Below are positions 3,813 to 64,000 of a DNA stretch of 64,000 nucleotides, piece by piece. The notes beneath the pieces were generated by a model. The model saw only the letters and a list, made by a program, of their open reading frames with translations. It searched no databases and had not been told where the DNA came from. Position 1 is the first letter of the stretch; each line of letters starts with the position of its first letter. The position numbers were made by a program, and so were the translations under genes. Source of the stretch: Nanobdellati archaeon (GTDB lineage Archaea; B1Sed10-29; JAGVWA01); NCBI GenBank assembly GCA_018304505.1, contig JAGVWA010000001.1, positions 1,537-65,536 of the forward strand, given 5' to 3'.

Positions 3813-5168
3813 ATGAAGCTACGATGGTACGTGCTGTTGCTGCCAATGCTAATCCTGACGGCACAACTTGGCTTTTCGCAGGCGAGCGTTTGCATTGACT
3901 ATGAACTAAACGCGACAAATGCGCAATTACTTGGGCAGCAATCGCTGGCAGCGCTGAACTTCGAAAAGGCAGGCCTGTGCAACGCCCAGAATCTTCAACT
4001 GACACAATGCACATCGAATTACAAAAAGGCAGCAGACATCTATGTTCAACTTAAGAAAAGCCGCGAAGCTGCTGCTGATTATGACGGCGCGGCAATCTGT
4101 GCACAACAGAACAGCAAGAACACGGACTGCGCGACCCTGTCCATTAGTGCTGCGGAACTGTACAACCAGCTTCTTGATTCCGGAAAAGCAGCTGCCGCCT
4201 ACCTGCGGGCCGCGGTGTGTTATGAAAAAACAACCATGAAAACACCGACCCTTGACAATTACATAAAAGCAGCAGAGGCCTTCAAGAACAACAACGACTA
4301 CGAACAGGCTGACAAGCAATACGAAAAGGCCATAGCGCTTGTTGAAACACAACGCACGCGTACAGCACAACAGTGCAGCCTGTATGCAGAGCGCGGCGCG
4401 ATTTACGAAGATGCAGGCCTGACAACAGGCGCTGCTGCATTCCATAGCCAAGCAGCAGAATGCTACTCTGAAATCAAAGAAAGAAACCTCTGCGAACAAG
4501 CAGCAACAAAGGCAGCGCAACTCACTGCAGACTTTTCAGACATCCAAAGCACACAATATTATGAGCTCGCAGGCAAGTGCTTTGAAAACCCGGGAACTGA
4601 CTTTTCATTAATACAGAAGTGCGACTACTACAACAACCTCGCGGCCACGAAATACAAAAACCTCGAAACCCTAGATAAGGCAGCAGAGGCATACAAAAAC
4701 GTCGCGCTGTGCCATGCGCGCGACCAGGTAAAAACCCTCGTGTCAGATAACTATTACCTGTGCGCAGGAGCTTATCTGCAGGCCGCGCTTGAAGTCGAGA
4801 ACATCCTAAACGCCCTTGACACCTATGACGAGGCCATAGCGTGCTTCATTGCAAACAAGGACACTGAAAAGGCAGAACTTGTACGGCAGTACGTGCGGGA
4901 AATGCAAAGCACCGGCTCATCAGGCATTGACATTGTCGACCTTGCGAACAACCCCGGCAAAAGCCTGAGGCCAAAACCAGCAGCAAACGCCACAGAGCAG
5001 GAACCAGAAGCCACAGAGCCAACAGGGCCAGAGTCAACATCAAGGAGCCCCATTTTTCTCGTGCTGATTCTGATCCTCGGCATCGTCATAATACTCGGGT
5101 TTTTCTACTACCAAAGGATTAAAAAGATGAAAGAACAAGAAGACACTGAACAACCGATGCGGTTCTAG
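3813..5168 (+). CDS. secreted Cys/Ala-rich TPR-like repeat protein with C-terminal membrane anchor
   Basis: N-terminal signal peptide (MKLRWYVLLLPMLILTAQLGFSQA). Repeated KAAEAYK / KAAEAFK helical motifs, a Pro/Thr/Glu linker, then a TM helix plus basic tail (IFLVLILILGIVIILGFFYYQRIKK). Confidence 0.45.
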   Translation: MKLRWYVLLLPMLILTAQLGFSQASVCIDYELNATNAQLLGQQSLAALNFEKAGLCNAQNLQLTQCTSNYKKAADIYVQLKKSREAAADYDGAAICAQQNSKNTDCATLSISAAELYNQLLDSGKAAAAYLRAAVCYEKTTMKTPTLDNYIKAAEAFKNNNDYEQADKQYEKAIALVETQRTRTAQQCSLYAERGAIYEDAGLTTGAAAFHSQAAECYSEIKERNLCEQAATKAAQLTADFSDIQSTQYYELAGKCFENPGTDFSLIQKCDYYNNLAATKYKNLETLDKAAEAYKNVALCHARDQVKTLVSDNYYLCAGAYLQAALEVENILNALDTYDEAIACFIANKDTEKAELVRQYVREMQSTGSSGIDIVDLANNPGKSLRPKPAANATEQEPEATEPTGPESTSRSPIFLVLILILGIVIILGFFYYQRIKKMKEQEDTEQPMRF

Positions 5169-5995: not shown

Positions 5996-6085
5996 CTCGT
6001 ACCTTTTTTTGAGCACGAGCAGCTTTGCACTTTAATTGACGTGATTTGTCATTGTGAACTACATACAAGCCGTTCCATTACACAA

Positions 6086-6097
6086 CATTTATAAACC
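6086..6097. repeat. 12-nt direct repeat CATTTATAAACC, left flank of AT-rich island
   Basis: An identical 12-mer recurs at 7250-7261. Both lie in a longer imperfect repeat (ccattacacaac...catttataaacc vs ccaccacaacc...catttataaacc). Confidence 0.6.
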
Positions 6098-6179
6098 TAT
6101 AAAATTAGAATTTTCACATCTTTAGGATTAATTACATTCAAGAATAAGTTTATATATCCTAAGATTTTCGTCATAGTAG

Positions 6180-6419
6180 GTGATAAATATCAATATAACA
6201 TTTGAGGATTCGGCAAAGGGAGAAATACTCACATTGCTAGACAAAAAAATCAATGCTGATGGCTTAATTGTTGAGAGAGCAAATCCTAATCAAAAAGTTC
6301 TAACTTTTGAGGGCGAAGAAATATCAATAAATGACTTTGGAGGCGTTAAAAAAGGCTCTGAAGTTTTTATAAAAGATAATTTAATTTCTTTAATGAAACT
6401 CTCAAAAGAAGGCATATAA
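6180..6419 (+). CDS. hypothetical small protein, gene 1 of AT-rich island
   Basis: 79-aa ORF in a ~30% GC island. Its stop TAA shares 1 nt with the ATG of the next ORF, suggesting translational coupling. Confidence 0.4.
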   Translation: MININITFEDSAKGEILTLLDKKINADGLIVERANPNQKVLTFEGEEISINDFGGVKKGSEVFIKDNLISLMKLSKEGI

Positions 6420-7204
6420 TGACTTGGTTTGATAAATTAAAAGGAATTCTAAACATTGATATTAAAACCCCAATCCTTTCTCTCAATTTTAATTCTAACA
6501 ACAAAGTGACTAATAAATACTATGTTAGTCTTGAAAGAGAACTTGATATTAATTTAGCGGCCCTAAGTCCGAAACAAAAGCAGGATATCAAAAAAATCTT
6601 CCCACAAATTTTAGCCAATGAAAAAACTATTTTTAAAAAAGAAACTTTAGACTTATTTGATAGTATTAATGACTACAATAAGAATAAAGAAGGAAAACAA
6701 ATATTGACATTTTTTGAGAATAAAATTCCAAAATATGATTTAGAAGCACTAAATGCTTCACTTTACTTGAGGAGTGTATTTAGAAAAAGAAAAGATATTA
6801 AGAAATTAAAACAGGATATAAATACTACTTTTGGAACTCGCGGAAACAATATCTCAAATTTATGTACTGCAGGCTATTTTGATAATTTTTTAATGGAACT
6901 CTACAATTCTTCACCAGGAACTTTTAATGGCTTATATGAGGATATTGTTTCAAATAAGGCATTAGCTGTTTTTGTAAATGAGCATATGACTAAAGAAAAG
7001 ATTACAGAAGATATTAAAAATAAATTGGATGTATCTAAAAAATATGGAATCAAATTTGTCCATATCCATGGAATAGGAACATCCACTGTTAAAAAAATCA
7101 ATGAATATATTGAAAATAAAGAAAAAAAAGATTTTGATACATTTCATCCTAAGAAAATCCTTAAGGAAGAAAATATTATCATAGTCGAATTAATATTAAA
7201 ATAG
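6419..7204 (+). CDS. hypothetical Lys/Asn-rich protein, gene 2 of AT-rich island
   Basis: 261 aa with strongly AT-biased codon usage unlike its neighbours. C-terminal ...KFVHIHGIGTSTVKKINEYIE is weakly Smr-like; no confident family assignment. Confidence 0.4.
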   Translation: MTWFDKLKGILNIDIKTPILSLNFNSNNKVTNKYYVSLERELDINLAALSPKQKQDIKKIFPQILANEKTIFKKETLDLFDSINDYNKNKEGKQILTFFENKIPKYDLEALNASLYLRSVFRKRKDIKKLKQDINTTFGTRGNNISNLCTAGYFDNFLMELYNSSPGTFNGLYEDIVSNKALAVFVNEHMTKEKITEDIKNKLDVSKKYGIKFVHIHGIGTSTVKKINEYIENKEKKDFDTFHPKKILKEENIIIVELILK

Positions 7205-7249
7205 AGTTTTAACAGATATAACTTATGTGCAAAGCCACCACAACCAAAG

Positions 7250-7261
7250 CATTTATAAACC
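7250..7261. repeat. 12-nt direct repeat CATTTATAAACC, right flank of AT-rich island (may double as dys TATA box)
   Basis: See 6086-6097. Confidence 0.6.
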
Positions 7262-7369
7262 CCAAAAACACGAATAATATTGGCAATGAGGATACCGTCC
7301 CGGACTGATTTGGACACATGAAGAACGGAGTAACTACTGAGCCACTGACATTAACTTGTTATCCCAACT

Positions 7370-8341
7370 ATGCTCTGTGGTCAAATGGAAAAGAAAGACC
7401 TGAAACCAATAAACGACATCAAACTAAACAAGGGCACAACCCAAGACGACATGGTACGGCAAATGCGCGACTCTGGAGGCTTTGTTGCCAAAAAACTCGG
7501 CATTGGAGTTGACATTCTCCAAGACATGGTTTCTGATTCTGACATGCGCGTCATCCTAAGCTTCCCAGCAGCGATCATTTCTACCGGCTGCCGCGGAATA
7601 ATTAAAGACTTAGTGAAGAACAAGCTTGTCGACGCCGTAATAACAACATGCGGCACGCTAGACCATGACCTCGCCCGCGTGTGGCGCGACTACTACCACG
7701 GCGCATTTGAAATGGATGACAAAAAACTCCATCAAGAAAACATCAACCGCGAAGGCAACATATTAATTCCAAACGAATCGTATGGGGAAATTCTTGAGCA
7801 AAAAATGCAGCCGCTGCTATTGAAGTGGTACAATGACGGAGACCGCGACATGGCGCCGCATGAGCTTGTTTGGAAATTCGGCGAAGCACTGGAAAACGAA
7901 GAAAACCGAGAAGAGTCGATCACGTACTGGGCTTGGAAGAACCAAATACCAGTGTTCATTCCGGGCCCGACAGACGGAGCCTGGGGGTGGCAAATGTGGT
8001 ACTTCTACCAGCAGGGCCACAAGGACTTCAACTTAAACTTAATGAAAGAAGCCGATGCTGTTTCTGATTTTGTGCACTCCTCTAAACGGCTTGGCGCACT
8101 GATGCTGGGCGGCGGAATCAGCAAGCACCACACCATCTGGTGGAGCCAGTTCAAGGAAGGGCTTGACAAGGCAGTGTACATTACAACTGCGCCGGAGTGG
8201 GACGGATCGCTCTCGGGCGCACGCTTGCGAGAAGCCGTCAGCTGGGGCAAAGTAAAAGAAGACGCCGACTACGTGACGATTGAAGGCGACGCCACTGTGC
8301 TTTTGCCCCTAATGATTGCCTCATTGTATCAGAGGTTGTGA
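7370..8341 (+). CDS. dys: deoxyhypusine synthase
   Basis: Motifs GGFVAKKLG, ITTCGTLDHD, GPTDGAWG, LGGGISKHH and EAVSWGK are characteristic of deoxyhypusine synthase. Confidence 0.9.
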   Translation: MLCGQMEKKDLKPINDIKLNKGTTQDDMVRQMRDSGGFVAKKLGIGVDILQDMVSDSDMRVILSFPAAIISTGCRGIIKDLVKNKLVDAVITTCGTLDHDLARVWRDYYHGAFEMDDKKLHQENINREGNILIPNESYGEILEQKMQPLLLKWYNDGDRDMAPHELVWKFGEALENEENREESITYWAWKNQIPVFIPGPTDGAWGWQMWYFYQQGHKDFNLNLMKEADAVSDFVHSSKRLGALMLGGGISKHHTIWWSQFKEGLDKAVYITTAPEWDGSLSGARLREAVSWGKVKEDADYVTIEGDATVLLPLMIASLYQRL

Positions 8342-47136: not shown

Positions 47137-48468
47137 ATGAATTATGAAAGCATGGCGGGCTACGAAGACTTCATAAACACGAAATACAAACCCAAAAGCA
47201 CTGACTTGCTGGTGTCTTTCAAAGTGAAAATACCTAAAGGCGTGAAGAAAGAAAAGGCCATCGGCGCAGTGGCGTCAGAAAGCAGTGTAGGAACATGGGC
47301 CAGCACAGTAAAGGGATCAGAGTACTCGCACGTGAAAAAGGTCGCCGGCACAGTATATTTTGTAACGCAGGAATCTCCAACATCGTACTGGACAAAAATC
47401 GCATATCCACAAGACCACTTCGAGCCAGGAAACATGTCGCAAATCCTCGCGTCCATTGCAGGCAACGTTTTCGGCATGAAGGCAGTCGACGGCCTCCGTA
47501 TAGAGGACATCAAATGGCCAGCCAAAATCAGGGACAGTTTTCCAGGACCACAGTTTGGCATTGACGGAATAAGGAAGATCTTCAAAGTGAAAAAACGTCC
47601 TTTGCTATTATCAGTGCCAAAACCAAAAGTCGGAATGACAACTCCAGAACACTGCGAAATCGGCAGGCAGATTTGGAGCGGTGGAATTGATCTGTTAAAG
47701 GATGATGAAAATTTATCATCGCAGAAATTCAACCCATTCGAAAAGCGAGTAAGAACGGCAGTGAAAATAAGGGACAGGATAGAAAAAGAAACAGGTGACA
47801 AGAAGTCATATTTGATAAACATTACTCATTCAAGCTACAAGGAAATGGAGAAACGCGCCAAGCTCATTGCAGACCTCGGCTGGGAATACGTCATGATCGA
47901 CATAGTAACAACCGGATTCTCTGGAGTGCACAGCGTACGCGAGTTATGCCAAGACCTGGGCTTGGCGATCCATGCCCACAGAGCAATGCACGCCAGCTTC
48001 ACTAGAAACCCGGACCATGGTTTTTCAATGCTTGCACTGGCAGAGACTTCCAGACTCTTGGGCGTTGACAACATACACATTGGAACGGCAGGCGTTGGAA
48101 AACTTGTTGGGACAAGCGACGAAGTTTTATCCATCCAAGATCACATTACAGGAAAGAAAGTGAAAGAAAACAAGAAACTCCGGACACTCGGAGAGGATTG
48201 GGGAAGGATAAAACCCGTATTCCCTGTATCCTCAGGAGGCTTACATCCTGGAGTACTGCCTGATGTCATGAAGAAAATGGGGACAAACATAATGATACAG
48301 GCCGGAGGGGGTATCCATGGGCACCCTGGCGGCAGCCATGCAGGCGCAATCGCTGTACGTCAAGCCGTTGAAGCATACCTTGATGGAGAAACACTTGACG
48401 AGCGCGCTCGCAAGGTTCCAGAGTTACAACAGGCATTAACGCTCTGGGGAAAGAAGCACATAAAGTGA
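47137..48468 (+). CDS. rbcL: ribulose-1,5-bisphosphate carboxylase large subunit, form III
   Basis: RuBisCO large-chain motifs (GGIDLLKDDENL, GxDxxKxDE). Sits in an AMP-salvage operon. TATA tttaaata at 47121; a leaderless start at 47152 is an alternative. Confidence 0.9.
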   Translation: MNYESMAGYEDFINTKYKPKSTDLLVSFKVKIPKGVKKEKAIGAVASESSVGTWASTVKGSEYSHVKKVAGTVYFVTQESPTSYWTKIAYPQDHFEPGNMSQILASIAGNVFGMKAVDGLRIEDIKWPAKIRDSFPGPQFGIDGIRKIFKVKKRPLLLSVPKPKVGMTTPEHCEIGRQIWSGGIDLLKDDENLSSQKFNPFEKRVRTAVKIRDRIEKETGDKKSYLINITHSSYKEMEKRAKLIADLGWEYVMIDIVTTGFSGVHSVRELCQDLGLAIHAHRAMHASFTRNPDHGFSMLALAETSRLLGVDNIHIGTAGVGKLVGTSDEVLSIQDHITGKKVKENKKLRTLGEDWGRIKPVFPVSSGGLHPGVLPDVMKKMGTNIMIQAGGGIHGHPGGSHAGAIAVRQAVEAYLDGETLDERARKVPELQQALTLWGKKHIK

Positions 48469-49310
48469 AACCGATGGGCATTGACGCTAATGTAAACAAG
48501 GCCTGCAGGCAAATATCTAGGCTAGAAATCCAAGGCGCGACCAACACTGCACTGTACGCACTGGCCAGCCTGAAAAAAGCCAAATTCACAAATTTGAAAT
48601 CCAACGTCAGGGCATTGCGGAAAACACGGCCAACTGAACCCCTGATGCTTAACGGCCTCGCTTACATTTCACAAGGCAGTTCACAAAAGGAAGTGACAGA
48701 ACTCGCCGACAAGTACAAAATCCTTATTGAAAAATCACACGCAGGGATCGCAAAGCACGGACAGAAAATCGTTAACAGAAAACACACCGTGCTGACGCAC
48801 TGCCACTCTTCTACAGTCGAAGCCATCCTTAAGACGGCAAAACCACGCGCTGTGATAGCAACTGAGACGCGTCCATTATACCAGGGCCACATAACCGCAA
48901 GAAACCTTGCGAAACACAAAATCAATGTAACGCAGGTAGTAGACTCTGCAGCAAACGCCATGATGAAAAATGCCGATGTTGTCATTGTAGGGTGTGACGC
49001 GATAACCAAAAACGCTAGCCTGATAAATAAGATCGGAACCTCCGGTGTTGCCTTGAGTGCCGGGGAACACGGCGTACCGTTTTACGCTGCCACATCACTG
49101 TTGAAATACGACTTGCGAAACGTTCCGATAGAATACCGCGACCCGCGTGAAGTATGGGCAAACCCACCGCGGGGGGTAAAGATCCTGAATCCCTCATTTG
49201 ACATAACTGAGTCAAAATTCATCACAAGCTTTATTACCGAAAAGGGATTACTTAAACCAAGGCAAGTCCCTAAAATGGCAATGAAAACATACCCGTGGAT
49301 AATTAGGTAG
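48465..49310 (+). CDS. ribose-1,5-bisphosphate isomerase (eIF-2B alpha/beta/delta-like)
   Basis: eIF2B-like fold, located between RuBisCO III and AMP phosphorylase. Confidence 0.8.
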   Translation: MKPMGIDANVNKACRQISRLEIQGATNTALYALASLKKAKFTNLKSNVRALRKTRPTEPLMLNGLAYISQGSSQKEVTELADKYKILIEKSHAGIAKHGQKIVNRKHTVLTHCHSSTVEAILKTAKPRAVIATETRPLYQGHITARNLAKHKINVTQVVDSAANAMMKNADVVIVGCDAITKNASLINKIGTSGVALSAGEHGVPFYAATSLLKYDLRNVPIEYRDPREVWANPPRGVKILNPSFDITESKFITSFITEKGLLKPRQVPKMAMKTYPWIIR

Positions 49311-49316
49311 ATAAAA

Positions 49317-49610
49317 ATGATGGAAAGGCACATTGTTGAAACGAAAAAAGGCGCGGCCTTGGGCTTTAAATTCAAAATGAACAAGCTGCCATTCATGATG
49401 GTAGTAGCAGATAAGGGTTACATGGTAGCGAACTACTTCGACCAGAAGGTGCTGGAGAAAGTCAACGACTCAGCCGTACTGTTCACAAACGTAAAAAGCT
49501 TCCCGGAAATGCTCAGAGCCAAGCCCGCGTACGTGTCGAAGAAGGCCCAGAAGCTCGGAATAAAGAAAACCATGACTGGCAAACAGGTTCTGGACGAATT
49601 CATTGACTAA
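49317..49610 (+). CDS. hypothetical small protein within AMP-salvage operon
   Basis: 97-aa ORF tightly packed between the isomerase and AMP phosphorylase genes. Confidence 0.4.
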   Translation: MMERHIVETKKGAALGFKFKMNKLPFMMVVADKGYMVANYFDQKVLEKVNDSAVLFTNVKSFPEMLRAKPAYVSKKAQKLGIKKTMTGKQVLDEFID

Positions 49611-49629
49611 TAAAACTGAGTGAAAGAAC

Positions 49630-51165
49630 ATGGAAGTGAAGCTCAAGCCTAAGTTCATTGATTTGGAGAGCGGCGGAAAAAACATCGTGATAATCAACAC
49701 TGAGGACGCGAAGGACATAGACGTGAGCGCCCTCGACAGGGTTTACGTACGCGCAAACGGCAAGAAAGTGACTGCACTCGTAGATACAAGTTCTACCATG
49801 GCGAAGCAGAACGAAATCGGGTTATTCAAGGAAGTCCAAAAAGAACTGCACCTAACAAAAGAACCGCAAAGCCTCTCAATCGAAAAAATCGATAAACCAA
49901 AGTCTGTCTACCTCATCAGGAAGAAAATGGACAAGGTCCCATTGAAACAGCCAGAAATCGAGAGCATCATCGAGGATGTAATGAATGACAACTTATCTGA
50001 AATAGAACTGACGGCCTTCGTAACGGCAGTATACATTAACGGCTTGAACGAAGAAGAGACCCTTGCACTAACTAACGAAATAATCAAATCCGGCAGGACC
50101 CTCCACTTTCCAAAAAAGGTTGTCCTTGACAAGCACTCTATCGGCGGCGTTCCCGGAAACAGGACAACCATGCTGCTGGTGCCGATTATCGCCAGTGCTG
50201 GGTTGACGATTCCAAAAACCTCATCGCGAGCCATAACCAGCCCCGCAGGAACAGCAGACGTCATGGAAGTCCTGGCGCCAGTAAACCTGACTGAAAAACA
50301 GATCATAGACACCATAAACAAAACAAATGGCTGCATCGTCTGGGGCGGCTCAATGAACCTTGCAGCTGCTGATGACAAACTCATCAAAGTTCGTCATCCC
50401 CTAAGTTTGGATCCGCACGGCATGCTGCTTGCCTCGATACTGGCGAAAAAGAAAGCAGTAGGCTCAACGCACGTGCTCATCGATATCTCTATTGGAAAAG
50501 GTGCAAAGATATTCCTGAAGCAGGACGCTGAGAAGCTCGCTGACGAATTTATTAGGTATGGGAACCTGCTGAACATGAACGTCGAGTGCATAATAACACC
50601 AGGTTACGATCCAATAGGGCAAGCCATTGGGCCAGCACTTGAGGCCCGCGAGATCCTTAGGATTCTTGAAGGCGAAAACGTCTCGCCTGAGCTGAAAGAA
50701 AAGGGAATAGCAATGGCCGGCCTGATGTTGGAAATGGCCGGGCGCGCAAAACACGGCGAAGGCGAGGCAACCGCACGATCAATCATCGACTCTGGAAAAG
50801 CGTTAGAAAAAATGAAAGAAATAATTAAAGCCCAGGGTGGGGACCCTAGTGTTAGTTCAAAAGGCATAAGGATCGGCAAGAAATCCATGACGATAAAAGC
50901 AACGCAAGCTGGCAGGATTCATTACATGAACACACGTGACTTGTCAACTATTGCGCGGGCTGCTGGGGCTCCAAAAGACATAGGCGCTGGAATTTACTTG
51001 TACGTTGAAAAGGGTGACAAAATAACTAAAGGCCAAAACATATTCACGATTTACGCAGAAAGCGACAGCAAACTAAAGGCTGCAGAGGAATTGATTGACA
51101 AACTGCAACCTGTAGAACTGGAAAAAACCATAATCGGTACTGTATTCAGCAAACACAAAAGCTGA
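49630..51165 (+). CDS. AMP phosphorylase (thymidine phosphorylase family)
   Basis: N-terminal extension plus the glycosyltransferase family 3 core (SIGGVPGNRTTMLLVPI). Confidence 0.85.
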   Translation: MEVKLKPKFIDLESGGKNIVIINTEDAKDIDVSALDRVYVRANGKKVTALVDTSSTMAKQNEIGLFKEVQKELHLTKEPQSLSIEKIDKPKSVYLIRKKMDKVPLKQPEIESIIEDVMNDNLSEIELTAFVTAVYINGLNEEETLALTNEIIKSGRTLHFPKKVVLDKHSIGGVPGNRTTMLLVPIIASAGLTIPKTSSRAITSPAGTADVMEVLAPVNLTEKQIIDTINKTNGCIVWGGSMNLAAADDKLIKVRHPLSLDPHGMLLASILAKKKAVGSTHVLIDISIGKGAKIFLKQDAEKLADEFIRYGNLLNMNVECIITPGYDPIGQAIGPALEAREILRILEGENVSPELKEKGIAMAGLMLEMAGRAKHGEGEATARSIIDSGKALEKMKEIIKAQGGDPSVSSKGIRIGKKSMTIKATQAGRIHYMNTRDLSTIARAAGAPKDIGAGIYLYVEKGDKITKGQNIFTIYAESDSKLKAAEELIDKLQPVELEKTIIGTVFSKHKS

Positions 51166-59705: not shown

Positions 59706-60305
59706 TCAGCAAAACGAGCTGCCACAGCCGCATGTTGCCCTTGCGTTGGGGTTGCTGAACTTAAAGCCGCTCTCATTCAGGCCGTCTACGTAGTCTACCG
59801 TGACGCCTTTCAACAGGTCGAAGCTATACGGGTTCACGAATATTTTTAGGCCGTCTCGTTCTAGCACCGTGTCACCATCTGCTGGTTTTTCTTCAAATTC
59901 CATTATGTATGACAAACCTGAGCAGCCCCCGGCATGCACGCCGACCCTGAGTCCATGGTCTGCTTTTCCTTCAGATTCAAGTAGGGCCTTAACCTTGGAA
60001 ATGGCCTTTGGCGTTAATGTAACCTCTGCTAGTTGTTCTTGTTCGTTTTGTTCACCCACATCTGTTGACACGATAGCGTTGAGGTCCATGACCAGCGAGT
60101 CGAGATGGTCATTTGTCATGCCATGACCAAGGACACCTTCTTCAAGCGTTTCGAAAACCGCGGCACCGCAGCCCACACAGTGCAGGCCTGCGTTGGTCAT
60201 AGTTTCCGCGAGTTCCATTACCTTGTCTGGATGTGATTCCAGAATTGTGGCTATGGTCATCTTTGGATCGATTTTTTGAATTTGATTTTGAACTTCAGTA
60301 GACAT
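59706..60305 (-). CDS. DUF1858 redox domain fused to HesB/IscA-type Fe-S cluster insertion protein
   Basis: N-terminal ...GLHCVGCG..., C-terminal ...VHAGGCSGLSY...ATCGCGSSFC (IscA CGCG motif). Confidence 0.7.
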   Translation of the reverse strand: MSTEVQNQIQKIDPKMTIATILESHPDKVMELAETMTNAGLHCVGCGAAVFETLEEGVLGHGMTNDHLDSLVMDLNAIVSTDVGEQNEQEQLAEVTLTPKAISKVKALLESEGKADHGLRVGVHAGGCSGLSYIMEFEEKPADGDTVLERDGLKIFVNPYSFDLLKGVTVDYVDGLNESGFKFSNPNARATCGCGSSFC

Positions 60306-60384
60306 TAAATATCACCACCAGAATTATGATTATAGGGATATATAAACCTTCTTGCAAATTCATTATATTGATTGCCGCGTTACG

Positions 60385-62058
60385 TTAATACCCTGGTCTC
60401 TTTTGCGTTATCTTCGCAAACAACCAGATTACGCCTACGAGGAAAACCAGCATGAAAATTAAGAATGACAGGGAGGGTAAGCCTTCTATCCTGGGCACAA
60501 CCCCCGAATCAACGATGAGCGCTGCTGCTATGATAAGGCTTGCAATGATGACTGAGAATGAAACGTCGCTGCTAGATCGCTCGATGCTTGAGGCCATTGA
60601 CTCAAGTCCTCGGTGTTCAAACTCAATCGGAATTACGCCTTCACTAAGGCGCTCTGTGATCCTATCAAAGCGCTTTGGCAAGATGCGGAGAAGCTGCGTT
60701 GTGTCCAACAGGGTCTCACGGCCGATTTCGACAAGCTGCTCTGCAGTCACGCGGCTCCTAAGAGCTTTTATGAAATATGATTTTGATGCACGAGTAAAAT
60801 TGAAACCCGGGTCTATCTCCCTGCCAAGACCCTCGATTTCCACCACGGTCTTGAAGAGGATTGAGAATTCCGGCGGAAGTACCATGTTGAACTTTTCTAT
60901 CATTTCTTGAACTTCCTGCATAAACTCATTTAGCGGAACCTCTTTTAGTGAGACGTCATAGAAGTTCTCAACAAGATCTGAAAGTTCACGCCGTATTTCT
61001 TGCGGCTTTGCGTCTGCGGGCAGCGCGGCAATCGTCATTATTTCCGTGACCGCCTTGTCAACGTCCCTGGCCGTGACTGCATATAGCAGCCTTGATAGCG
61101 ATTTCCTAGCTTGAGGGCCGATTGTGCCTACCAAGCCAAAGTCTATAATGCCGATCTTGTCAGCGCCTATGATAAACAGGTTCCCGGCGTGGGGGTCTGC
61201 CTGGAACAAACCGTCTTCGAAGATTTGCTTCAGGTATATCGCGGTTCCCTTTCGCGCGATCTTCTCCCGTGTTTTTTTCGATACGCGTTTTTTCATCCAT
61301 TGCGTTAGCGGTGTTCCGTGGATTTTGTTCAGCGTGAGAACCTTTCTTGTTGTATAATCCCAGTGCACGTCTGGTATTACCACGTCCTTATCGCCCTTGA
61401 AGTTTTCCCTGAAACGGGTGTACATCCTTGCTTCTCTTAACAAGTTAGTTTCTTTTGATACTGCCCGGGAGTACTCTGCAAGGATGTTGGACAAGTTGAT
61501 TTTCTTTGCCTCTGTTATTGTGGCTTCTGCTGTGCCTGCGAGAATCCTCAGGGCCTCAAGGTCGATTTTTATGTGCTCCTCAACATTTTTCCTGAGCACT
61601 TTTACAACAACACGGTCTCCTTCAAGCGTTTTTGCTTCATGGACCTGGCTTAGCGAAGCCGAAGCTATTGGCTGTTCATTGAATTCACGGAATACTTCAT
61701 TTAGGGGCATCTTGAATTCGGATTCAATTTGCGCTTTCACTTCGCTAAACGGCACCGCAGGGGCATGATCTACTAGTTTTGAGAATTCTTCTATGATGTC
61801 CCTTGGCAACAAATCAGGGCGAGTTGACAAAATTTGCCCGAACTTGATGTACAATGGACCAAGGTCTTCGAGAACACGGCGCGCCCTTACCCCCCTTGAG
61901 ACAACAAAGTCCTCTGGCATTTCGAGGCCCAGCCGCTCTTTTATCGGGATGTATTTGCCCAGGCGCATCTTCGTCAGTAAGAAGCCAAAGCCATGCTTAG
62001 CTAAAGTACTAACTACGTCGCTGTATCTCTGCAGTACCTGCTTTTCAGGTATGGCCAT
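60385..62058 (-). CDS. ABC1/UbiB (ADCK) atypical kinase family protein
   Basis: Motifs ASASLSQVHEA, ADPHAGNLFII and DFGLVG; C-terminal TM helices. Confidence 0.85.
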   Translation of the reverse strand: MAIPEKQVLQRYSDVVSTLAKHGFGFLLTKMRLGKYIPIKERLGLEMPEDFVVSRGVRARRVLEDLGPLYIKFGQILSTRPDLLPRDIIEEFSKLVDHAPAVPFSEVKAQIESEFKMPLNEVFREFNEQPIASASLSQVHEAKTLEGDRVVVKVLRKNVEEHIKIDLEALRILAGTAEATITEAKKINLSNILAEYSRAVSKETNLLREARMYTRFRENFKGDKDVVIPDVHWDYTTRKVLTLNKIHGTPLTQWMKKRVSKKTREKIARKGTAIYLKQIFEDGLFQADPHAGNLFIIGADKIGIIDFGLVGTIGPQARKSLSRLLYAVTARDVDKAVTEIMTIAALPADAKPQEIRRELSDLVENFYDVSLKEVPLNEFMQEVQEMIEKFNMVLPPEFSILFKTVVEIEGLGREIDPGFNFTRASKSYFIKALRSRVTAEQLVEIGRETLLDTTQLLRILPKRFDRITERLSEGVIPIEFEHRGLESMASSIERSSSDVSFSVIIASLIIAAALIVDSGVVPRIEGLPSLSFLIFMLVFLVGVIWLFAKITQKRPGY

Positions 62059-62064
62059 TAGAAT

Positions 62065-62451
62065 CTACTTCTTTCGCTTTGCCTGCTTCTTCGCCCTTGT
62101 GGCTTTCTTTGCTGCGGGTTTTCTATTTGCGGCTTTCTTTTTAGCTGCTGGCTTTGCCTTTGCTGCTTTTTTGACGTTCCTCGCTGACGTTCGGACTTGC
62201 TTCTGCATTGCCGTGAGTTCTTTTATCGATGTCGAAAGAACACTGTTGACCTTTATGTCGATTTTCTTTGCCTCTGCAGTCGTGTCTTTTATCAGCTTTG
62301 TTGCCAGCCTTTTGCCTTCCTTTTTGTCAAAGAAGCCTTCCTCTACAAGGAAGTCTGTATAGTCCTTGAAGAGATCCCTAGCGATTTCCACCATGCCCAT
62401 GGGTATGAGGATTGCTTTTTTTGCTGCGCTTGTCGATTTTTTTGCTGCCAT
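62065..62451 (-). CDS. Lys/Ala-rich phasin-like / histone-H1-like protein
   Basis: N-terminal helical domain, then an AKPAAKKK repeat tail; architecture resembles PHA-granule phasins (PhaF-like). Confidence 0.35.
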   Translation of the reverse strand: MAAKKSTSAAKKAILIPMGMVEIARDLFKDYTDFLVEEGFFDKKEGKRLATKLIKDTTAEAKKIDIKVNSVLSTSIKELTAMQKQVRTSARNVKKAAKAKPAAKKKAANRKPAAKKATRAKKQAKRKK

Positions 62452-62514
62452 TTTCTTTAATCACCTTTTGAGTATTAGTTACTGTTCTAAAAGAAATCGT
62501 TGTTTATAAAGGTG

Positions 62515-62555
62515 ATGCTAGGCAGCATCCTATTATATAATCTTAATTCCAGCGC
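62515..62555. repeat. cassette-boundary direct repeat R1 (tgctaggcagc-N20-ttccagcgcc)
   Basis: Read directly; shares 11-nt and 10-nt conserved arms with R2 and R3. Confidence 0.85.
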
Positions 62556-62592
62556 CGTAATTAATATTAAGCAATTAGAGTTTAATAGAAAT

Positions 62593-63267
62593 ATGTCTTA
62601 CAAAGAAATTGTTCTTGAGAGAATCAAAGCAGATAAAGACTTACGAGAAAAACTCAACGTAGTTAAGGAATTTTCTCAAAAAGAAGGAGTTTTAAACCCA
62701 ATAATTACAGCAGGATACATAAGAGACTTTATTCTTGATGGCCCCCAAGGAGACATTGATTTAGTTTATACTGGCAGCATGAAAGACAATGAAGCTTTGA
62801 AGATAATAAGAGATATCGAAAAAGAACAAGGACTTAAGGAAAGCGATTGGGAACCCACAAACCAGAATCATTGGGGCTATGGCCAAACCACAGAAGAGGG
62901 AATTGCATCCTTCATGCACTCCATTAACGCTGTTGGAATAACACACAATTATAAACTGATAGACCCAACCGGCAATGGATTGAGCGATATGGAAAACAAG
63001 ATACTCAGAGCAAATCAAACTAACCAAAAAAACGGAAGAACTGCCACGGTAGGACTTATTGGAATCAGACACATGGTTAACTATAGCCTAATGCCGGCAC
63101 CAGAAACAGAAGAAATAAACAAAGATGCCCACAATTACTGGAATTTATTATCAGAAGATGACAAAAGAAGCATCAAAGGCATCTATGAAAAAACTATAGA
63201 TAAAAACAAATTTGTTGAATTGCTCAAGAAATATAACTTTTACAACCTAGTTAAAAAATACTTATAG
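62593..63267 (+). CDS. class-II-CCA/poly(A) polymerase-like minimal nucleotidyltransferase (cassette 1)
   Basis: ITAGYIRDFILDGPQGDIDLVYTGS closely matches the PolyA_pol head motif GGAVRDxLLGxxxxDxDh. Low-GC codon usage. The track ORF start at 62500 would read through repeat R1, so ATG 62593 is chosen. Confidence 0.55.
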   Translation: MSYKEIVLERIKADKDLREKLNVVKEFSQKEGVLNPIITAGYIRDFILDGPQGDIDLVYTGSMKDNEALKIIRDIEKEQGLKESDWEPTNQNHWGYGQTTEEGIASFMHSINAVGITHNYKLIDPTGNGLSDMENKILRANQTNQKNGRTATVGLIGIRHMVNYSLMPAPETEEINKDAHNYWNLLSEDDKRSIKGIYEKTIDKNKFVELLKKYNFYNLVKKYL

Positions 63268-63310
63268 AAAAAATAGATATGGCGCCATTAAGGCGTATTT
63301 AGATAAAGAG

Positions 63311-63351
63311 TGCTAGGCAGCGTCGTGCCACTTGATCTCTATTCCAGCGCC
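63311..63351. repeat. cassette-boundary direct repeat R2
   Basis: tgctaggcagcgtcgtgccacttgatctctattccagcgcc; preceded by palindrome ATGGCGCCAT and followed by TATA tttatata (63371). Confidence 0.85.
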
Positions 63352-63412
63352 CCGCAAGTGCTGCAAAACATTTATATATTACATGGTATTATAAAGTATA
63401 ATGTGATGTTAT

Positions 63413-63646
63413 ATGGTACAAGTTATGGTAGAATTAACTGAACAGGCCAACAGAACTGTTGAAATAATCAAGGCGACCTACGGAATGAACAGCAAATCAG
63501 ATGTCATTGACATGATTATTGAGAAGTACGGAGAAAAAACCCTAGAACCTCAACTAAGGCCAGAATACATAGAGAAAATCAGAAAGATTAAAGCAGGCAA
63601 ATTCATAACAGTAAAGGACATCAATAAGTATTTTGATGAACTCTAA
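63413..63646 (+). CDS. putative antitoxin (RelB/DUF2683-like) of cassette 2
   Basis: 77-aa ORF immediately upstream of the RelE-like gene. An alternative start at 63425 is possible. Confidence 0.45.
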   Translation: MVQVMVELTEQANRTVEIIKATYGMNSKSDVIDMIIEKYGEKTLEPQLRPEYIEKIRKIKAGKFITVKDINKYFDEL

Positions 63647-63685
63647 GGAGCTGACTCTCTGTATACCCACAAACTTTCAGTTAAA

Positions 63686-63922
63686 GTGGACAAGGCCTTC
63701 AAAAAATATTTGAGGAAAGACCCCCTCCAAAAAGAAGCAGTACTCAAAAAAATTGAACAAATACTAAATAATCCCAGACAATACAAGCCACTCAAGTGGC
63801 CACAAGCAGGCGAACGCAGAGTTCACATAGGCTCGTTTGTTCTAACCTTTGAAATAATTGAAGAAGAAAAAGTAGTCAGACTCCTAGACTACGACCATCA
63901 CGACAAAATTTATAAGAAATAG
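63686..63922 (+). CDS. RelE/ParE-family toxin (cassette 2)
   Basis: ...LKWPQAGERRVHIGSFVLTFEIIEEEKVVRLLDYDHHDKIY matches the RelE core (RvGdyRiiYeIdee.k.v.il.v.hRk.iY). Confidence 0.7.
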   Translation: MDKAFKKYLRKDPLQKEAVLKKIEQILNNPRQYKPLKWPQAGERRVHIGSFVLTFEIIEEEKVVRLLDYDHHDKIYKK

Positions 63923-63959
63923 ATCAAGAGAGCCCCCTTCATTATTTCATAATGAAGGG

Positions 63960-64000
63960 TGCTAGGCAGCGTCCTGTTACATACTCTCTTTTCCAGCGTC
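63960..64000. repeat. cassette-boundary direct repeat R3 (runs to window end)
   Basis: tgctaggcagcgtcctgttacatactctcttttccagcgtc; preceded by hairpin ccttcattat-ttc-ataatgaagg (63936-63958). Confidence 0.85.

What the first reader, a model, noticed from the sequence alone, without database searches (positions are those of the whole stretch)
62452..64000. Low-GC gene-cassette array bounded by 41-nt direct repeats (integron-like or novel)
Three copies of tgctaggcagc-N20-ttccagcgcc occur at 62515, 63311 and 63960, spaced 796 and 649 bp apart. Each copy is followed by a TATA-like element and a single gene module. The modules seen are a CCA-like nucleotidyltransferase and an antitoxin plus RelE toxin. 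Each module ends in a palindrome or hairpin just before the next repeat: ATGGCGCCAT at 63279, and ccttcattat-ttc-ataatgaagg at 63936. The 20-nt centre of the repeat varies while the arms are conserved. The arms are not mutual complements; in R2 they only partly pair with flanking sequence (CAGC..CACTTG / CAAGTGCTG). The segment is about 33% GC against about 50% GC for the flanking core genes. It starts exactly at a core-gene boundary and continues past the window end. Toxin-antitoxin and small NTase cargo is typical of integron cassettes, and integrons have been reported in Archaea, but no integrase is visible here. The repeat spacing and content rule out CRISPR.
Basis: partly seen in the sequence, partly recalled or inferred. 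Interest (0 to 1): 0.8.

Follow-up and report, generated by a model that had tools for sequence, protein, structure and literature searches.

The report
Foreign gene modules stacked behind 5S rRNA
In a groundwater DPANN archaeon, three low-GC foreign gene modules sit one after another directly behind the 5S ribosomal RNA gene, and each junction repeats the last 14 bases of that gene; this looks like repeated site-specific insertion at an unusual target, not an integron.

Summary
Three 41-nt direct repeats (R1-R3 at 62516, 63311, 63960; none expected by chance) separate low-GC (32-38%) gene modules in a 47-49% GC genome. The array is only about 2.7 kb and ends 1.2 kb past the window at a fourth, partial repeat. 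That partial repeat is the 3' end of a 5S rRNA gene (Rfam 67.5 bits) on the opposite strand. The first 14 nt of every repeat (TGCTAGGCAGCRTC) are the reverse complement of the 5S 3' terminus.

The integron reading fails. There is no R'/R'' motif, no attC-like fold and no recombinase in 62 kb upstream or 10 kb downstream. Tests for CRISPR, dif-like dyads, terminal inverted repeats and a "mini-5S" also failed.

Cargo: a truncated CCA-enzyme-like nucleotidyltransferase, a DUF2683 plus ParE/YafQ toxin pair, and a NYN nuclease.

Best explanation: serial, orientation-specific insertion of small integrase-less modules at an attachment site overlapping the 5S 3' end, with the recombinase supplied in trans. 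This is inferred from a single locus in one lineage. No empty site, excised circle or enzyme was seen.

The parts
62065..62451 (-). Core flanking gene: lysine-rich 128-aa protein with no family match. It marks the left border of the low-GC segment.
   Evidence: ORF list. Only an LMBR1 match far below the Pfam cut-off (15.4 bits against 31.9). GC 47% for the core stretch 60385-62451 (UbiB gene plus this gene). Used to fetch the extended contig L001.
62499..62515 (.). 17-nt junction GTTGTTTATAAAGGTGA between the core flank and R1. On the minus strand it carries the TTTATAAAC TATA-like box of the lysine-rich gene. Three independent assemblies break at its left edge (62498|62499).
   Evidence: Contigs L006, L007 and L008 all end at 62498. 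Sequence.
62516..62556 (+). R1, the outermost repeat: block A TGCTAGGCAGCATC (one A/G change), AT-rich centre, block B TTCCAGCGCC.
62593..63267 (+). Unit 1 gene: 224-aa truncated class II CCA-adding-enzyme-like nucleotidyltransferase (head and neck only). Belongs to a rare family.
   Evidence: Pfam and NCBIfam sub-threshold. Only 15 distant relatives among 1.84 billion representatives. G[GS]...DxD motif conserved in the family alignment. Model pLDDT 93.8. Foldseek match to 6qy6, 1miv and 3wfr at E about 1e-7.
63279..63288 (.). Palindrome ATGGCGCCAT in the tail of unit 1. Function unknown.
   Evidence: Not part of any structure shared with the other junctions.
63311..63351 (+). R2: block A TGCTAGGCAGCGTC, centre, block B TTCCAGCGCC.
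   Evidence: A variant-strain contig (L266) begins inside it at 63329, with 3 SNPs in the repeat centre and one 4 nt past the repeat end.
63413..63646 (+). Unit 2 gene a: DUF2683 protein, 77 aa, presumed antitoxin.
   Evidence: Pfam PF10884, E 1e-8, 35.7 bits.
63647..63922 (+). Unit 2 gene b: ParE/RelE/YafQ-family toxin. The frame is open from 63647 but the first canonical start is GTG at 63686, so the gene is either truncated or uses a non-canonical start.
   Evidence: Pfam ParE_toxin 1.5e-8. TIGR00053 YafQ 1.6e-12 covering residues 8-90 of the 91-codon frame. ORF list.
63933..63959 (.). Perfect hairpin CCCCCTTCATTAT-TTC-ATAATGAAGGG abutting R3, at the tail of unit 2.
   Evidence: I18. Fold z-scores of -3.1 and -3.7 for this intergenic region only.
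63960..64000 (+). R3: block A TGCTAGGCAGCGTC, centre, block B TTCCAGCGTC. Beyond the window, in window-equivalent coordinates: unit 3 spans 64001-65184 (about 520 nt holding only a 40-aa ORF, then the NYN nuclease gene 64523-65176). Block A alone follows at 65185-65198 and equals the 3' end of the 5S rRNA gene (65188-65303, minus strand).
   Evidence: L001 coordinate = 72452 minus window coordinate.

Best explanation
The segment is a short stack of three small foreign units inserted one after another, all in the same orientation. The third unit holds two transcription units. The stack occupies a single chromosomal hotspot: an attachment site that overlaps the last 14 nt of the organism's 5S rRNA gene.

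Proposed steps:
1. Each incoming module carries a 41-nt site. Block A is identical to the 5S 3' terminus. A 17-nt spacer and block B (TTCCAGCGYC) are module-borne.
2. Recombination within block A places the module between the 5S gene and whatever lay downstream. It regenerates an intact 5S 3' end and pushes the previous copy of block A outward.
3. The array therefore reads: core flank - R1 - NTase - R2 - toxin/antitoxin - R3 - (40-aa ORF + NYN) - block A/5S. The newest unit would lie next to the 5S gene.
4. The modules encode no recombinase, so the enzyme must act in trans, from a host or helper-element integrase that is not in view.

Shown: the repeat anatomy, the identity to the 5S terminus, the foreign composition, the uniform orientation, and the absence of a nearby recombinase.

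Inferred: recombination as the cause, the crossover position, the order of arrival, and whether the units are still mobile.
For: 1. A 5S rRNA gene (Rfam 67.5 bits, full length) lies at L001 7149-7264. The low-GC array starts at its last nucleotides. The 14 nt TGCTAGGCAGCGTC at that junction are identical to block A of R2 and R3 and match R1 at 13/14.
2. All four copies are direct and all cargo genes point the same way, convergent with the 5S gene.
3. The units are compositionally foreign: 32-38% GC against 47-49%.
4. Blocks A and B are GC-rich islands (57-70% GC) kept at 13-14/14 and 9-10/10 identity. The centre has drifted to 8-11/17 identity and 12-47% GC. This implies constraint on both blocks.
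5. Homology between junctions lies almost entirely on one side of block A. That is the pattern expected when one arm of the site travels with the element.
6. Population data hint at unit-level polymorphism. Three assemblies break at 62498. A 98.7%-identical variant contig starts inside R2. The NTase protein was found on no contig from those samples.
7. A 47%-identical NYN gene forms a solitary low-GC island of about 1 kb in a 60%-GC archaeon, so this cargo moves as a minimal module.
8. The array is identical in seven independent assemblies, so it is not an assembly artefact.
9. Tandem re-use of one integration site with direct-repeat scars is established for archaeal integrated elements (PMC6563490, PMC8371274).
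Against: - This is one locus in one lineage. No empty-site allele, excised circle or second array was found.
- No recombinase lies within reach. About 40 kb of the contig and the rest of the genome could not be examined.
- The array has no SNPs and no rearrangements in the main haplotype across samples, so nothing shows current mobility.
- The core is short (14 nt) and the site lacks the dyad symmetry usual for tyrosine-recombinase cores. The dyad is perfect (6-4-6) only in R1.
- The assembly break at 62498 lies 17 nt outside R1, which a simple crossover within block A does not predict.
- Unit 3 contains about 520 nt without a convincing gene, and the toxin lacks a canonical start. Both look like decay.
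- My metagenome and genome scans used too loose a pattern and returned almost only chance hits, so generality is untested.
Confidence: 0.5

Rival explanations
1. Same origin, but dead relics. Three full-size integrative elements (proviruses or plasmids with their own integrase) inserted successively at the 5S 3' end. Each was later whittled down by deletion to one or two genes, with the addictive toxin-antitoxin pair helping retention. The repeats are fossil attR-type sites and nothing moves today.
For: - Tandem integrations and degraded elements are common in archaea (PMC6563490, PMC8371274).
- About 520 nt of unit 3 hold only a 40-aa ORF.
- The toxin lacks a canonical start.
- There is no recombinase, and the array is invariant in seven assemblies.
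Against: - No integrase fragments or other element debris were seen. The translations across the repeats are not conserved as peptides.
- Each unit is a compact promoter-gene-tail package.
- Deletion would have had to stop three times just short of the same 27-nt arm.
- The NYN gene also occurs elsewhere as a solitary 1-kb island.
- The variant haplotype appears to differ by about one unit.
Confidence: 0.2
2. Not mobile DNA. The 41-nt repeats are cis-regulatory or termination and processing elements of a local set of genes, for example a binding site for a regulator upstream of each promoter. The match to the 5S terminus reflects local duplication of the 5S end and terminator region.
For: - Each repeat lies upstream of a TATA-like AT-rich stretch and a gene.
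- Both blocks contain CAGCGYC as a direct repeat 27 nt apart, which could be a protein-binding pair.
Against: - The distance from block B to the TATA-like boxes and start codons varies between units.
- The downstream promoter regions are not homologous to one another.
- The fourth copy is the 5S gene end itself and has no block B.
- This view does not explain why unrelated, compositionally foreign genes sit between the copies, or why the first one begins at the last base of the 5S gene.
Confidence: 0.1
3. Transposition with a long target-site duplication, as casposons do. A Cas1-like or other integrase makes cuts staggered by 14 nt at the 5S end, so block A is a host-derived duplication created anew at each insertion rather than a shared recombination core.
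For: - The duplicated segment is 14 nt, the size class made by casposases (13-15 bp).
- Casposases target a site abutting the 3' end of a tRNA gene and can form tandem arrays (PMC5137440, PMC6563490).
- Homology beyond block A is one-sided.
Against: - The units have no terminal inverted repeats (p 0.5, 0.04 and 0.24).
- No Cas1 or PolB gene is in view.
- The units are 0.6-1.2 kb, against 8-20 kb for casposons (the casposon size is from my own knowledge).
- R1's block A differs from the 5S sequence by one base, although that could be a later mutation.
Confidence: 0.07
4. A true integron array without an integrase (CALIN). The 41-nt repeats are attC sites recombined as folded single strands by an IntI encoded elsewhere.
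For: - It is a tandem array of short same-orientation genes separated by similar repeats, with toxin-antitoxin cargo. Archaeal CALINs show this arrangement and are reported in DPANN lineages (PMC9668308).
- Absence of intI nearby is common for CALINs.
Against: - No R' (GTTRRRY) or R'' (RYYYAAC) motif on either strand of any junction.
- No imperfect palindrome or shared hairpin.
- At 41 nt the repeat is shorter than typical attC sites (about 55-140 nt; my own knowledge).
- The repeat sits upstream of each gene's own promoter.
- The array is anchored on an RNA gene end, not on an attI next to intI.
Confidence: 0.03

Closest known systems
Tandem integrative elements at the 3' ends of tRNA/tmRNA genes (archaeal SSV-type and pNOB8-type tyrosine integrases; cryptic integrated elements)
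   Same: - Insertion at the 3' end of a stable-RNA gene.
- The gene end is regenerated, and a partial gene copy marks each junction as a direct repeat.
- The same site is re-used to build arrays.
- The cargo has foreign composition (PMC6563490, PMC8371274).
   Different: - The target here is a 5S rRNA gene. The 2021 review of archaeal tyrosine recombinases does not contain the word 'rRNA' at all, and my literature searches found no archaeal case.
- The units are 0.65-1.2 kb with one or two genes and no integrase. The smallest thaumarchaeal cryptic element listed is 2.6 kb, and those elements carry an integrase by definition.
Staphylococcal cassette chromosome arrays (SCCmec, pseudo-SCC) at the 3' end of rlmH
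   Same: - Serial insertion at the 3' end of one conserved gene.
- A short direct repeat copying that gene end at every junction.
- Composite arrays in which some units lack their own recombinase and depend on one supplied in trans (my own knowledge; the search only located papers on this system).
   Different: - That system is bacterial, its target is a protein-coding gene, it uses large serine recombinases (ccr), and its units are several kb to tens of kb.
- No ccr-like gene was seen here.
Integron cassette arrays / CALINs, including the archaeal ones
   Same: - Array architecture: small, mostly single-gene units in uniform orientation.
- A recombination site carried on one side of each unit.
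- Toxin-antitoxin cargo, and frequent absence of the integrase nearby (PMC9668308).
   Different: - No attC structure or motifs, and no attI/intI platform.
- The repeat lies at the 5' side of a unit that has its own promoter.
- The fixed anchor is the end of the 5S rRNA gene.
Casposons (Cas1-solo transposons)
   Same: - A direct repeat of 14-15 bp at each border.
- A target site defined by the 3' end of an RNA gene (tRNA-Pro in Aciduliprofundum boonei).
- Tandem insertions are known (PMC5137440, PMC6563490).
   Different: - No terminal inverted repeats and no Cas1 or PolB gene.
- The units are about ten times smaller.
- Here the duplicated segment is the RNA gene's own terminus rather than the sequence next to it.
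Xer-dependent modules (IMEX elements at dif; pdif modules of Acinetobacter plasmids)
   Same: Small recombinase-less modules, often carrying toxin-antitoxin genes, bounded by short recombination sites and moved by a host enzyme in trans (my own knowledge).
   Different: dif-type sites are 11-6-11 inverted repeats (PMC8371274). No such dyad is shared by R1-R4.

Membership tests
Integron / CALIN | attC site: imperfect palindrome with R'' (RYYYAAC) and R' (GTTRRRY) boxes that folds as single-stranded DNA | tested here: not met
   No R' or R'' motif on either strand of the four junction regions. Folds of the repeats with 10-nt flanks have z-scores of -0.9 to +1.0, apart from one R1 strand at -2.85, and no structure is shared. 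The attC covariance model itself (HattCI/IntegronFinder) was not available.
Integron / CALIN | IntI tyrosine recombinase with adjacent attI | tested here: not met
   No Phage_integrase or other recombinase family among the genes of the 64-kb window and 10 kb beyond. This is not decisive alone, because CALINs lack intI (PMC9668308).
Integron / CALIN | Tandem short ORFs in one orientation separated by similar repeats | tested here: met
RNA-gene-targeting integrative elements (Campbell-type, tyrosine integrase) | Direct repeats at element borders that duplicate the end of the target RNA gene, leaving the gene intact | tested here: met
   Block A equals the 3'-terminal 14 nt of a full-length 5S rRNA gene (Rfam 67.5 bits, model positions 1-120) and recurs at all four junctions.
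RNA-gene-targeting integrative elements (Campbell-type, tyrosine integrase) | Element-encoded integrase | tested here: not met
   The units encode only the NTase, DUF2683, ParE/YafQ, a 40-aa ORF and NYN.
RNA-gene-targeting integrative elements (Campbell-type, tyrosine integrase) | Empty attB in relatives, or an excised circular form | not testable with these tools
   No relative is closer than 38% identity at the neighbouring UbiB gene. Look-ups were limited to window proteins, and no reads were available.
Casposon-like transposition | Target-site duplication of 14-15 bp | tested here: met
   The repeated core is 14 nt. The size class is taken from PMC5137440.
Casposon-like transposition | Terminal inverted repeats and a Cas1-solo (plus PolB) gene | tested here: not met
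   Left end against reverse-complemented right end gives shuffle p values of 0.5, 0.039 and 0.235. No Cas1 or PolB gene in the gene tables.
Xer/dif-type modules | Site of two roughly 11-nt inverted arms around a 6-8-nt spacer | tested here: not met
   The best dyads differ in position and sequence between R1, R2, R3 and R4. Only R1 has GATGCT-AGGC-AGCATC.
CRISPR array | Regular repeats of 23-55 nt separated by non-coding spacers of 25-70 nt | tested here: not met
   Spacings are 795, 649 and 1225 nt and contain intact genes.
5S rRNA pseudogene / 'mini-5S' | Similarity of the repeat to 5S beyond the 3'-terminal core | tested here: not met
   The 27 nt outside block A show no significant local similarity to the 5S gene (shuffle p 0.41-0.86). 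Three competing 6-7/10 placements exist for the block B arm. Rfam at E<=1 finds only the true 5S gene in the array.

The most novel reading that the evidence does not exclude
DPANN archaea, and perhaps others, possess an active, integron-like gene-capture platform that works without attC or IntI. The 3' end of the single-copy 5S rRNA gene serves as the fixed docking site. Minimal promoter-plus-gene modules carry a non-palindromic 41-nt site: the 5S-terminus mimic, a spacer, and the TTCCAGCGYC arm. A recombinase encoded elsewhere shuffles these modules in and out. The assembly breaks at 62498 and inside R2 in three samples would then be footprints of ongoing cassette exchange.
Probability: 0.15. 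Interest if true: 0.8.

Novelty: new variant of a known kind. Interest (0 to 1): 0.5.

Why it matters
Stable-RNA genes are the classic landing pads for mobile DNA, but the known cases are tRNA and tmRNA genes. A 5S rRNA gene used this way, by modules that are barely larger than one gene and carry no recombinase, would extend the list of targets. It would also point to a minimal cassette-style route for gene gain in genome-reduced DPANN archaea, whose accessory-gene dynamics are poorly understood.

The finding gives a simple, general search rule: look for copies of a genome's own 5S 3' terminus within a few kb downstream of the 5S gene. That rule can show quickly whether this is a one-off scar or a widespread platform.

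If it is only a scar of three old integrations, it is an ordinary genomic island with an uncommon address.

Tried and rejected
1. Integron attC: motif and fold tests were negative.
2. "Mini-5S" (repeat = 5S 5' end plus 3' end). This looked attractive by eye (GGCGCTGG against GGTGCTGG), but it is not significant and two other placements compete with it.
3. dif-like dyad: none shared between copies.
4. Terminal inverted repeats or a casposon: none.
5. Repeats as coding sequence, for example split-integrase remnants: the three in-frame peptides are not conserved.
6. Known RNA families in the array: only the 5S gene.
7. Archaeal origin-recognition boxes (TTCCAG...GGAAA). By eye, block B lacks the second half of the dyad, the copies are direct, and no orc1/cdc6 gene is nearby. 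Rejected without a formal test.
8. Collection scans with GCTAGGCAGC-N{16,26}-TTCCAGCG were my mistake. The only true hits were the same organism.
9. Synteny comparison through the neighbouring UbiB gene: no relative above 38% identity.
10. A concatenated four-protein query meant to recover several families in one search returned only one NYN homologue.
11. Viral-contig searches with the NYN, DUF2683 and NTase proteins found nothing.
13. NTase homologues elsewhere (L272, L273, L275) lie in ordinary operons, without repeats or 5S genes.
14. The single-sequence structure model was useless (pLDDT 36). The model built from the alignment worked.
Full report
**Observation.** The pattern TGCTAGGCAGC-N20-TTCCAGCGCC occurs at 62516, 63311 and 63960 on the + strand, with 0, 0 and 1 mismatches. 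No match occurred in 100 dinucleotide-preserving shuffles of the window. The repeat finder recovers the same family. A profile HMM built from the three copies finds no further full copy in 72 kb. The palindrome at 63279 and the hairpin at 63936 are as described. GC content is 35.0%, 37.9% and 32.3% for the three units, against 47.3% and 48.6% for the flanks. The arms are 13-14/14 and 9-10/10 identical between copies. The 17-nt centre is 8-11/17 identical, so the whole 41 nt is homologous, with two blocks under stronger constraint.

**Extension beyond the window.** The flanking lysine-rich protein (62065-62451, minus strand) is encoded on a 117-kb metagenome contig; L001 is the 20-kb stretch fetched around it, and window coordinate = 72452 minus L001 coordinate.
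- The contig is identical to the window over 60000-64000.
- Past R3 lies one more unit of 1.2 kb: about 520 nt with only a 40-aa ORF, then a 217-aa NYN-domain gene.
- Next comes TGCTAGGCAGCGTC once more, this time followed by GC-rich sequence.
- Rfam identifies that sequence as a full-length 5S rRNA gene on the opposite strand (L001 7149-7264, 67.5 bits against a gathering score of 38).
- Block A of every repeat is therefore the reverse complement of the last 14 nt of the 5S gene.
- The array is about 2.7 kb in total. It is wedged between the 5S 3' end and the promoter of the lysine-rich gene, and all cargo genes are convergent with the 5S gene.
- Beyond the 5S gene lie ordinary core genes: HSP20, an HTH protein, M50 peptidase, FtsZ, SRP RNA and Lon.

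**Organism.** The only database protein identical to the NTase is annotated "DPANN group archaeon". All contigs come from groundwater-type samples. The neighbouring UbiB gene has no relative above 38% identity, so synteny comparison with relatives was impossible.

**Integron test.**
- None of the four junction regions contains GTTRRRY or RYYYAAC on either strand.
- Single-strand folds of the repeats with 10-nt flanks are not better than shuffles, except one R1 strand, and they share no structure.
- Whole-junction folds are significant only where the unit 2 hairpin lies.
- No recombinase family appears among the genes of the 64-kb window or the 10 kb beyond. Instead there are SUF, lipoate, RNR, RuBisCO form III, AMP phosphorylase and similar genes.
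- Archaeal integrons are defined by bacterial-type folded attC sites and, where present, IntI with attI (PMC9668308). Those features are not met here.

**Other structural ideas.**
- By eye, the distal arm (GGCGCTGGAA in the 5S sense) resembled the 5S 5' end. Local alignment against the 5S gene is not significant (p 0.41-0.86), and three placements compete at 6-7/10. I drop the "mini-5S" idea. Only the 14-nt terminus is securely shared.
- No dif-like 11-6-11 dyad is common to the copies (site definition from PMC8371274).
- The units have no terminal inverted repeats.
- Rfam at E<=1 finds nothing but the 5S gene in the array.
- Both blocks contain CAGCGYC in direct orientation 27 nt apart. I note this as a possible protein-binding pair but could not test it.

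**Population data.**
- Seven independent assemblies of the main haplotype carry the array with no differences inside it, so it is real and currently stable.
- In three other samples the contig carrying the lysine-rich gene stops at exactly 62498.
- In one of those samples (ERZ4903185), the toxin-antitoxin genes sit on a 98.7%-identical contig (two similar places were reported but not shown) that starts inside R2 at 63329.
- That contig has 4 SNPs in its first 27 nt, none for the next 800 nt (through R3), then rising divergence until it ends at the NYN start codon.
- The NTase protein was found on no contig from those samples.
- This suggests that a segment roughly equal to R1 + unit 1 + R2 is replaced or absent in a co-occurring strain. 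I could not retrieve that sequence.
- The left break lies 17 nt outside R1, which a simple crossover in block A does not predict. This remains unexplained.

**Cargo.**
- Unit 1 encodes a 224-aa protein with sub-threshold sequence matches to the CCA/poly(A) polymerase head domain.
- It has only 15 distant relatives among 1.84 billion representatives. The family alignment keeps the G[GS]...DxD signature.
- A pLDDT 93.8 model matches class II CCA-adding enzymes over head and neck (E about 1e-7, TM 0.65-0.72).
- Its relatives elsewhere sit in ordinary operons.
- Unit 2 is DUF2683 plus a ParE/YafQ-family toxin whose frame lacks a canonical start before profile position 4.
- Unit 3 carries a NYN nuclease (5.7e-16).
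- The only retrievable NYN homologue (47% identity) lies in a 60%-GC archaeal contig as a solitary island of about 1 kb at 37-45% GC, between the PolB and GAPDH genes. It is flanked by a weak direct repeat (p about 0.03). This cargo therefore travels as a minimal module.

**Mechanism.** The combination of features is the signature of repeated site-specific insertion at one attachment site that overlaps the 3' end of a stable-RNA gene:
- an intact RNA gene;
- its terminal 14 nt repeated directly at every junction;
- junction homology confined to one side of that core;
- uniform orientation;
- foreign composition.

Tandem arrays built this way are documented in archaea (PMC6563490, PMC8371274). 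I infer that each unit brought block A, the spacer and block B as its own half of the site. I also infer that insertion next to the 5S gene regenerates the gene end and displaces older copies outward, and that the enzyme acts in trans. None of these steps is shown directly. The data cannot tell whether the units were born small (cassette-like) or are trimmed relics of larger elements. Compact, intact promoter-gene packages and the solitary NYN island favour the first view. The ORF-poor 520 nt, the start-less toxin and the static array favour the second.

**Comparison and novelty.** In logic the array resembles tRNA-gene island arrays and SCC arrays at rlmH. In architecture it resembles integron arrays. 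In repeat size it resembles casposon duplications (13-15 bp next to a tRNA 3' end; PMC5137440). It fails defining tests for integrons, casposons and dif modules. It meets the repeat criterion of RNA-gene integrative elements but lacks their integrase. A 5S rRNA gene as the target was not found in the literature I could search, and the 2021 review of archaeal tyrosine recombinases never mentions rRNA. SAR11 has a hypervariable region between its 23S and 5S genes, attributed to homologous recombination (PMC2217521), which is a different phenomenon. I rate the finding as a new variant of a known kind, based on a single locus.

**Limits.** The other 40 kb of the contig and the rest of the genome were unreachable. 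No reads were available.

Noticed in passing
window 6000-7300: A second sharply bounded low-GC island (23-31% GC against about 48%). It holds two genes with no family match (6180-6419 and 6419-7204), between a Band_7 gene and the deoxyhypusine synthase gene. It is flanked by an imperfect 31-nt direct repeat containing CATTTATAAACC (at 6081 and 7245), possibly a duplicated promoter or an insertion scar. The repeat is unrelated in sequence to R1-R3.
   Followed up: partly
L001 about 7930-7967 (minus strand; window-equivalent about 64485-64522) and L268 about 4267-4304: A stem-loop immediately upstream of the NYN start codon is conserved between two NYN genes that are only 47% identical. It has 14 base pairs, 4 of them with compensatory double changes, and an identical loop CUUGU. 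It may be a 5'-UTR element tied to this nuclease family.
   Followed up: partly
L268 4037-4062 and 5101-5126: The NYN island in a 60%-GC archaeon is flanked by a 26-nt imperfect direct repeat with an 11-nt exact core, GATAGGCAGGA. The upstream copy forms the last codons of PolB (…NGIKKIGRRE*), which resemble the GAPDH N-terminus (…NGFGRIGRNF) encoded by the downstream copy. The core shares the 7-mer TAGGCAG with block A of the array studied here. Significance is only about p 0.03.
   Followed up: partly
window 62498|62499: Three assemblies from different samples and assemblers (L006, L007, L008) end at exactly this base, 17 nt outside R1 and just past the TATA-like box of the lysine-rich gene. 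The alternative sequence was never assembled.
   Followed up: partly
window 63647-63922: The ParE/YafQ toxin frame has no ATG, GTG or TTG before GTG at 63686, although the family profile aligns from residue 8 of the 91-codon frame. The toxin may be N-terminally truncated or may start at a non-canonical codon (for example CTG at 63659).
   Followed up: no
window 1-64000: Neither ARAGORN nor Rfam detects a tRNA gene or any other known RNA family in 64 kb. The 5S rRNA, the SRP RNA and one weak tRNA hit all lie just outside the window.
   Followed up: no
window 47137-51165: A gene cluster of form III-type RuBisCO large subunit, an IF-2B-family (ribose-1,5-bisphosphate isomerase-like) protein and an AMP phosphorylase-like glycosyl transferase. 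This is the archaeal AMP salvage pathway often seen in DPANN genomes.
   Followed up: no
L272 1102-3910: The closest relative of the unit 1 nucleotidyltransferase (36% identity) sits in a tight operon between two PEP-utilizer-domain proteins. This may hint at the native function of this rare family of mini CCA-enzyme-like proteins.
   Followed up: no
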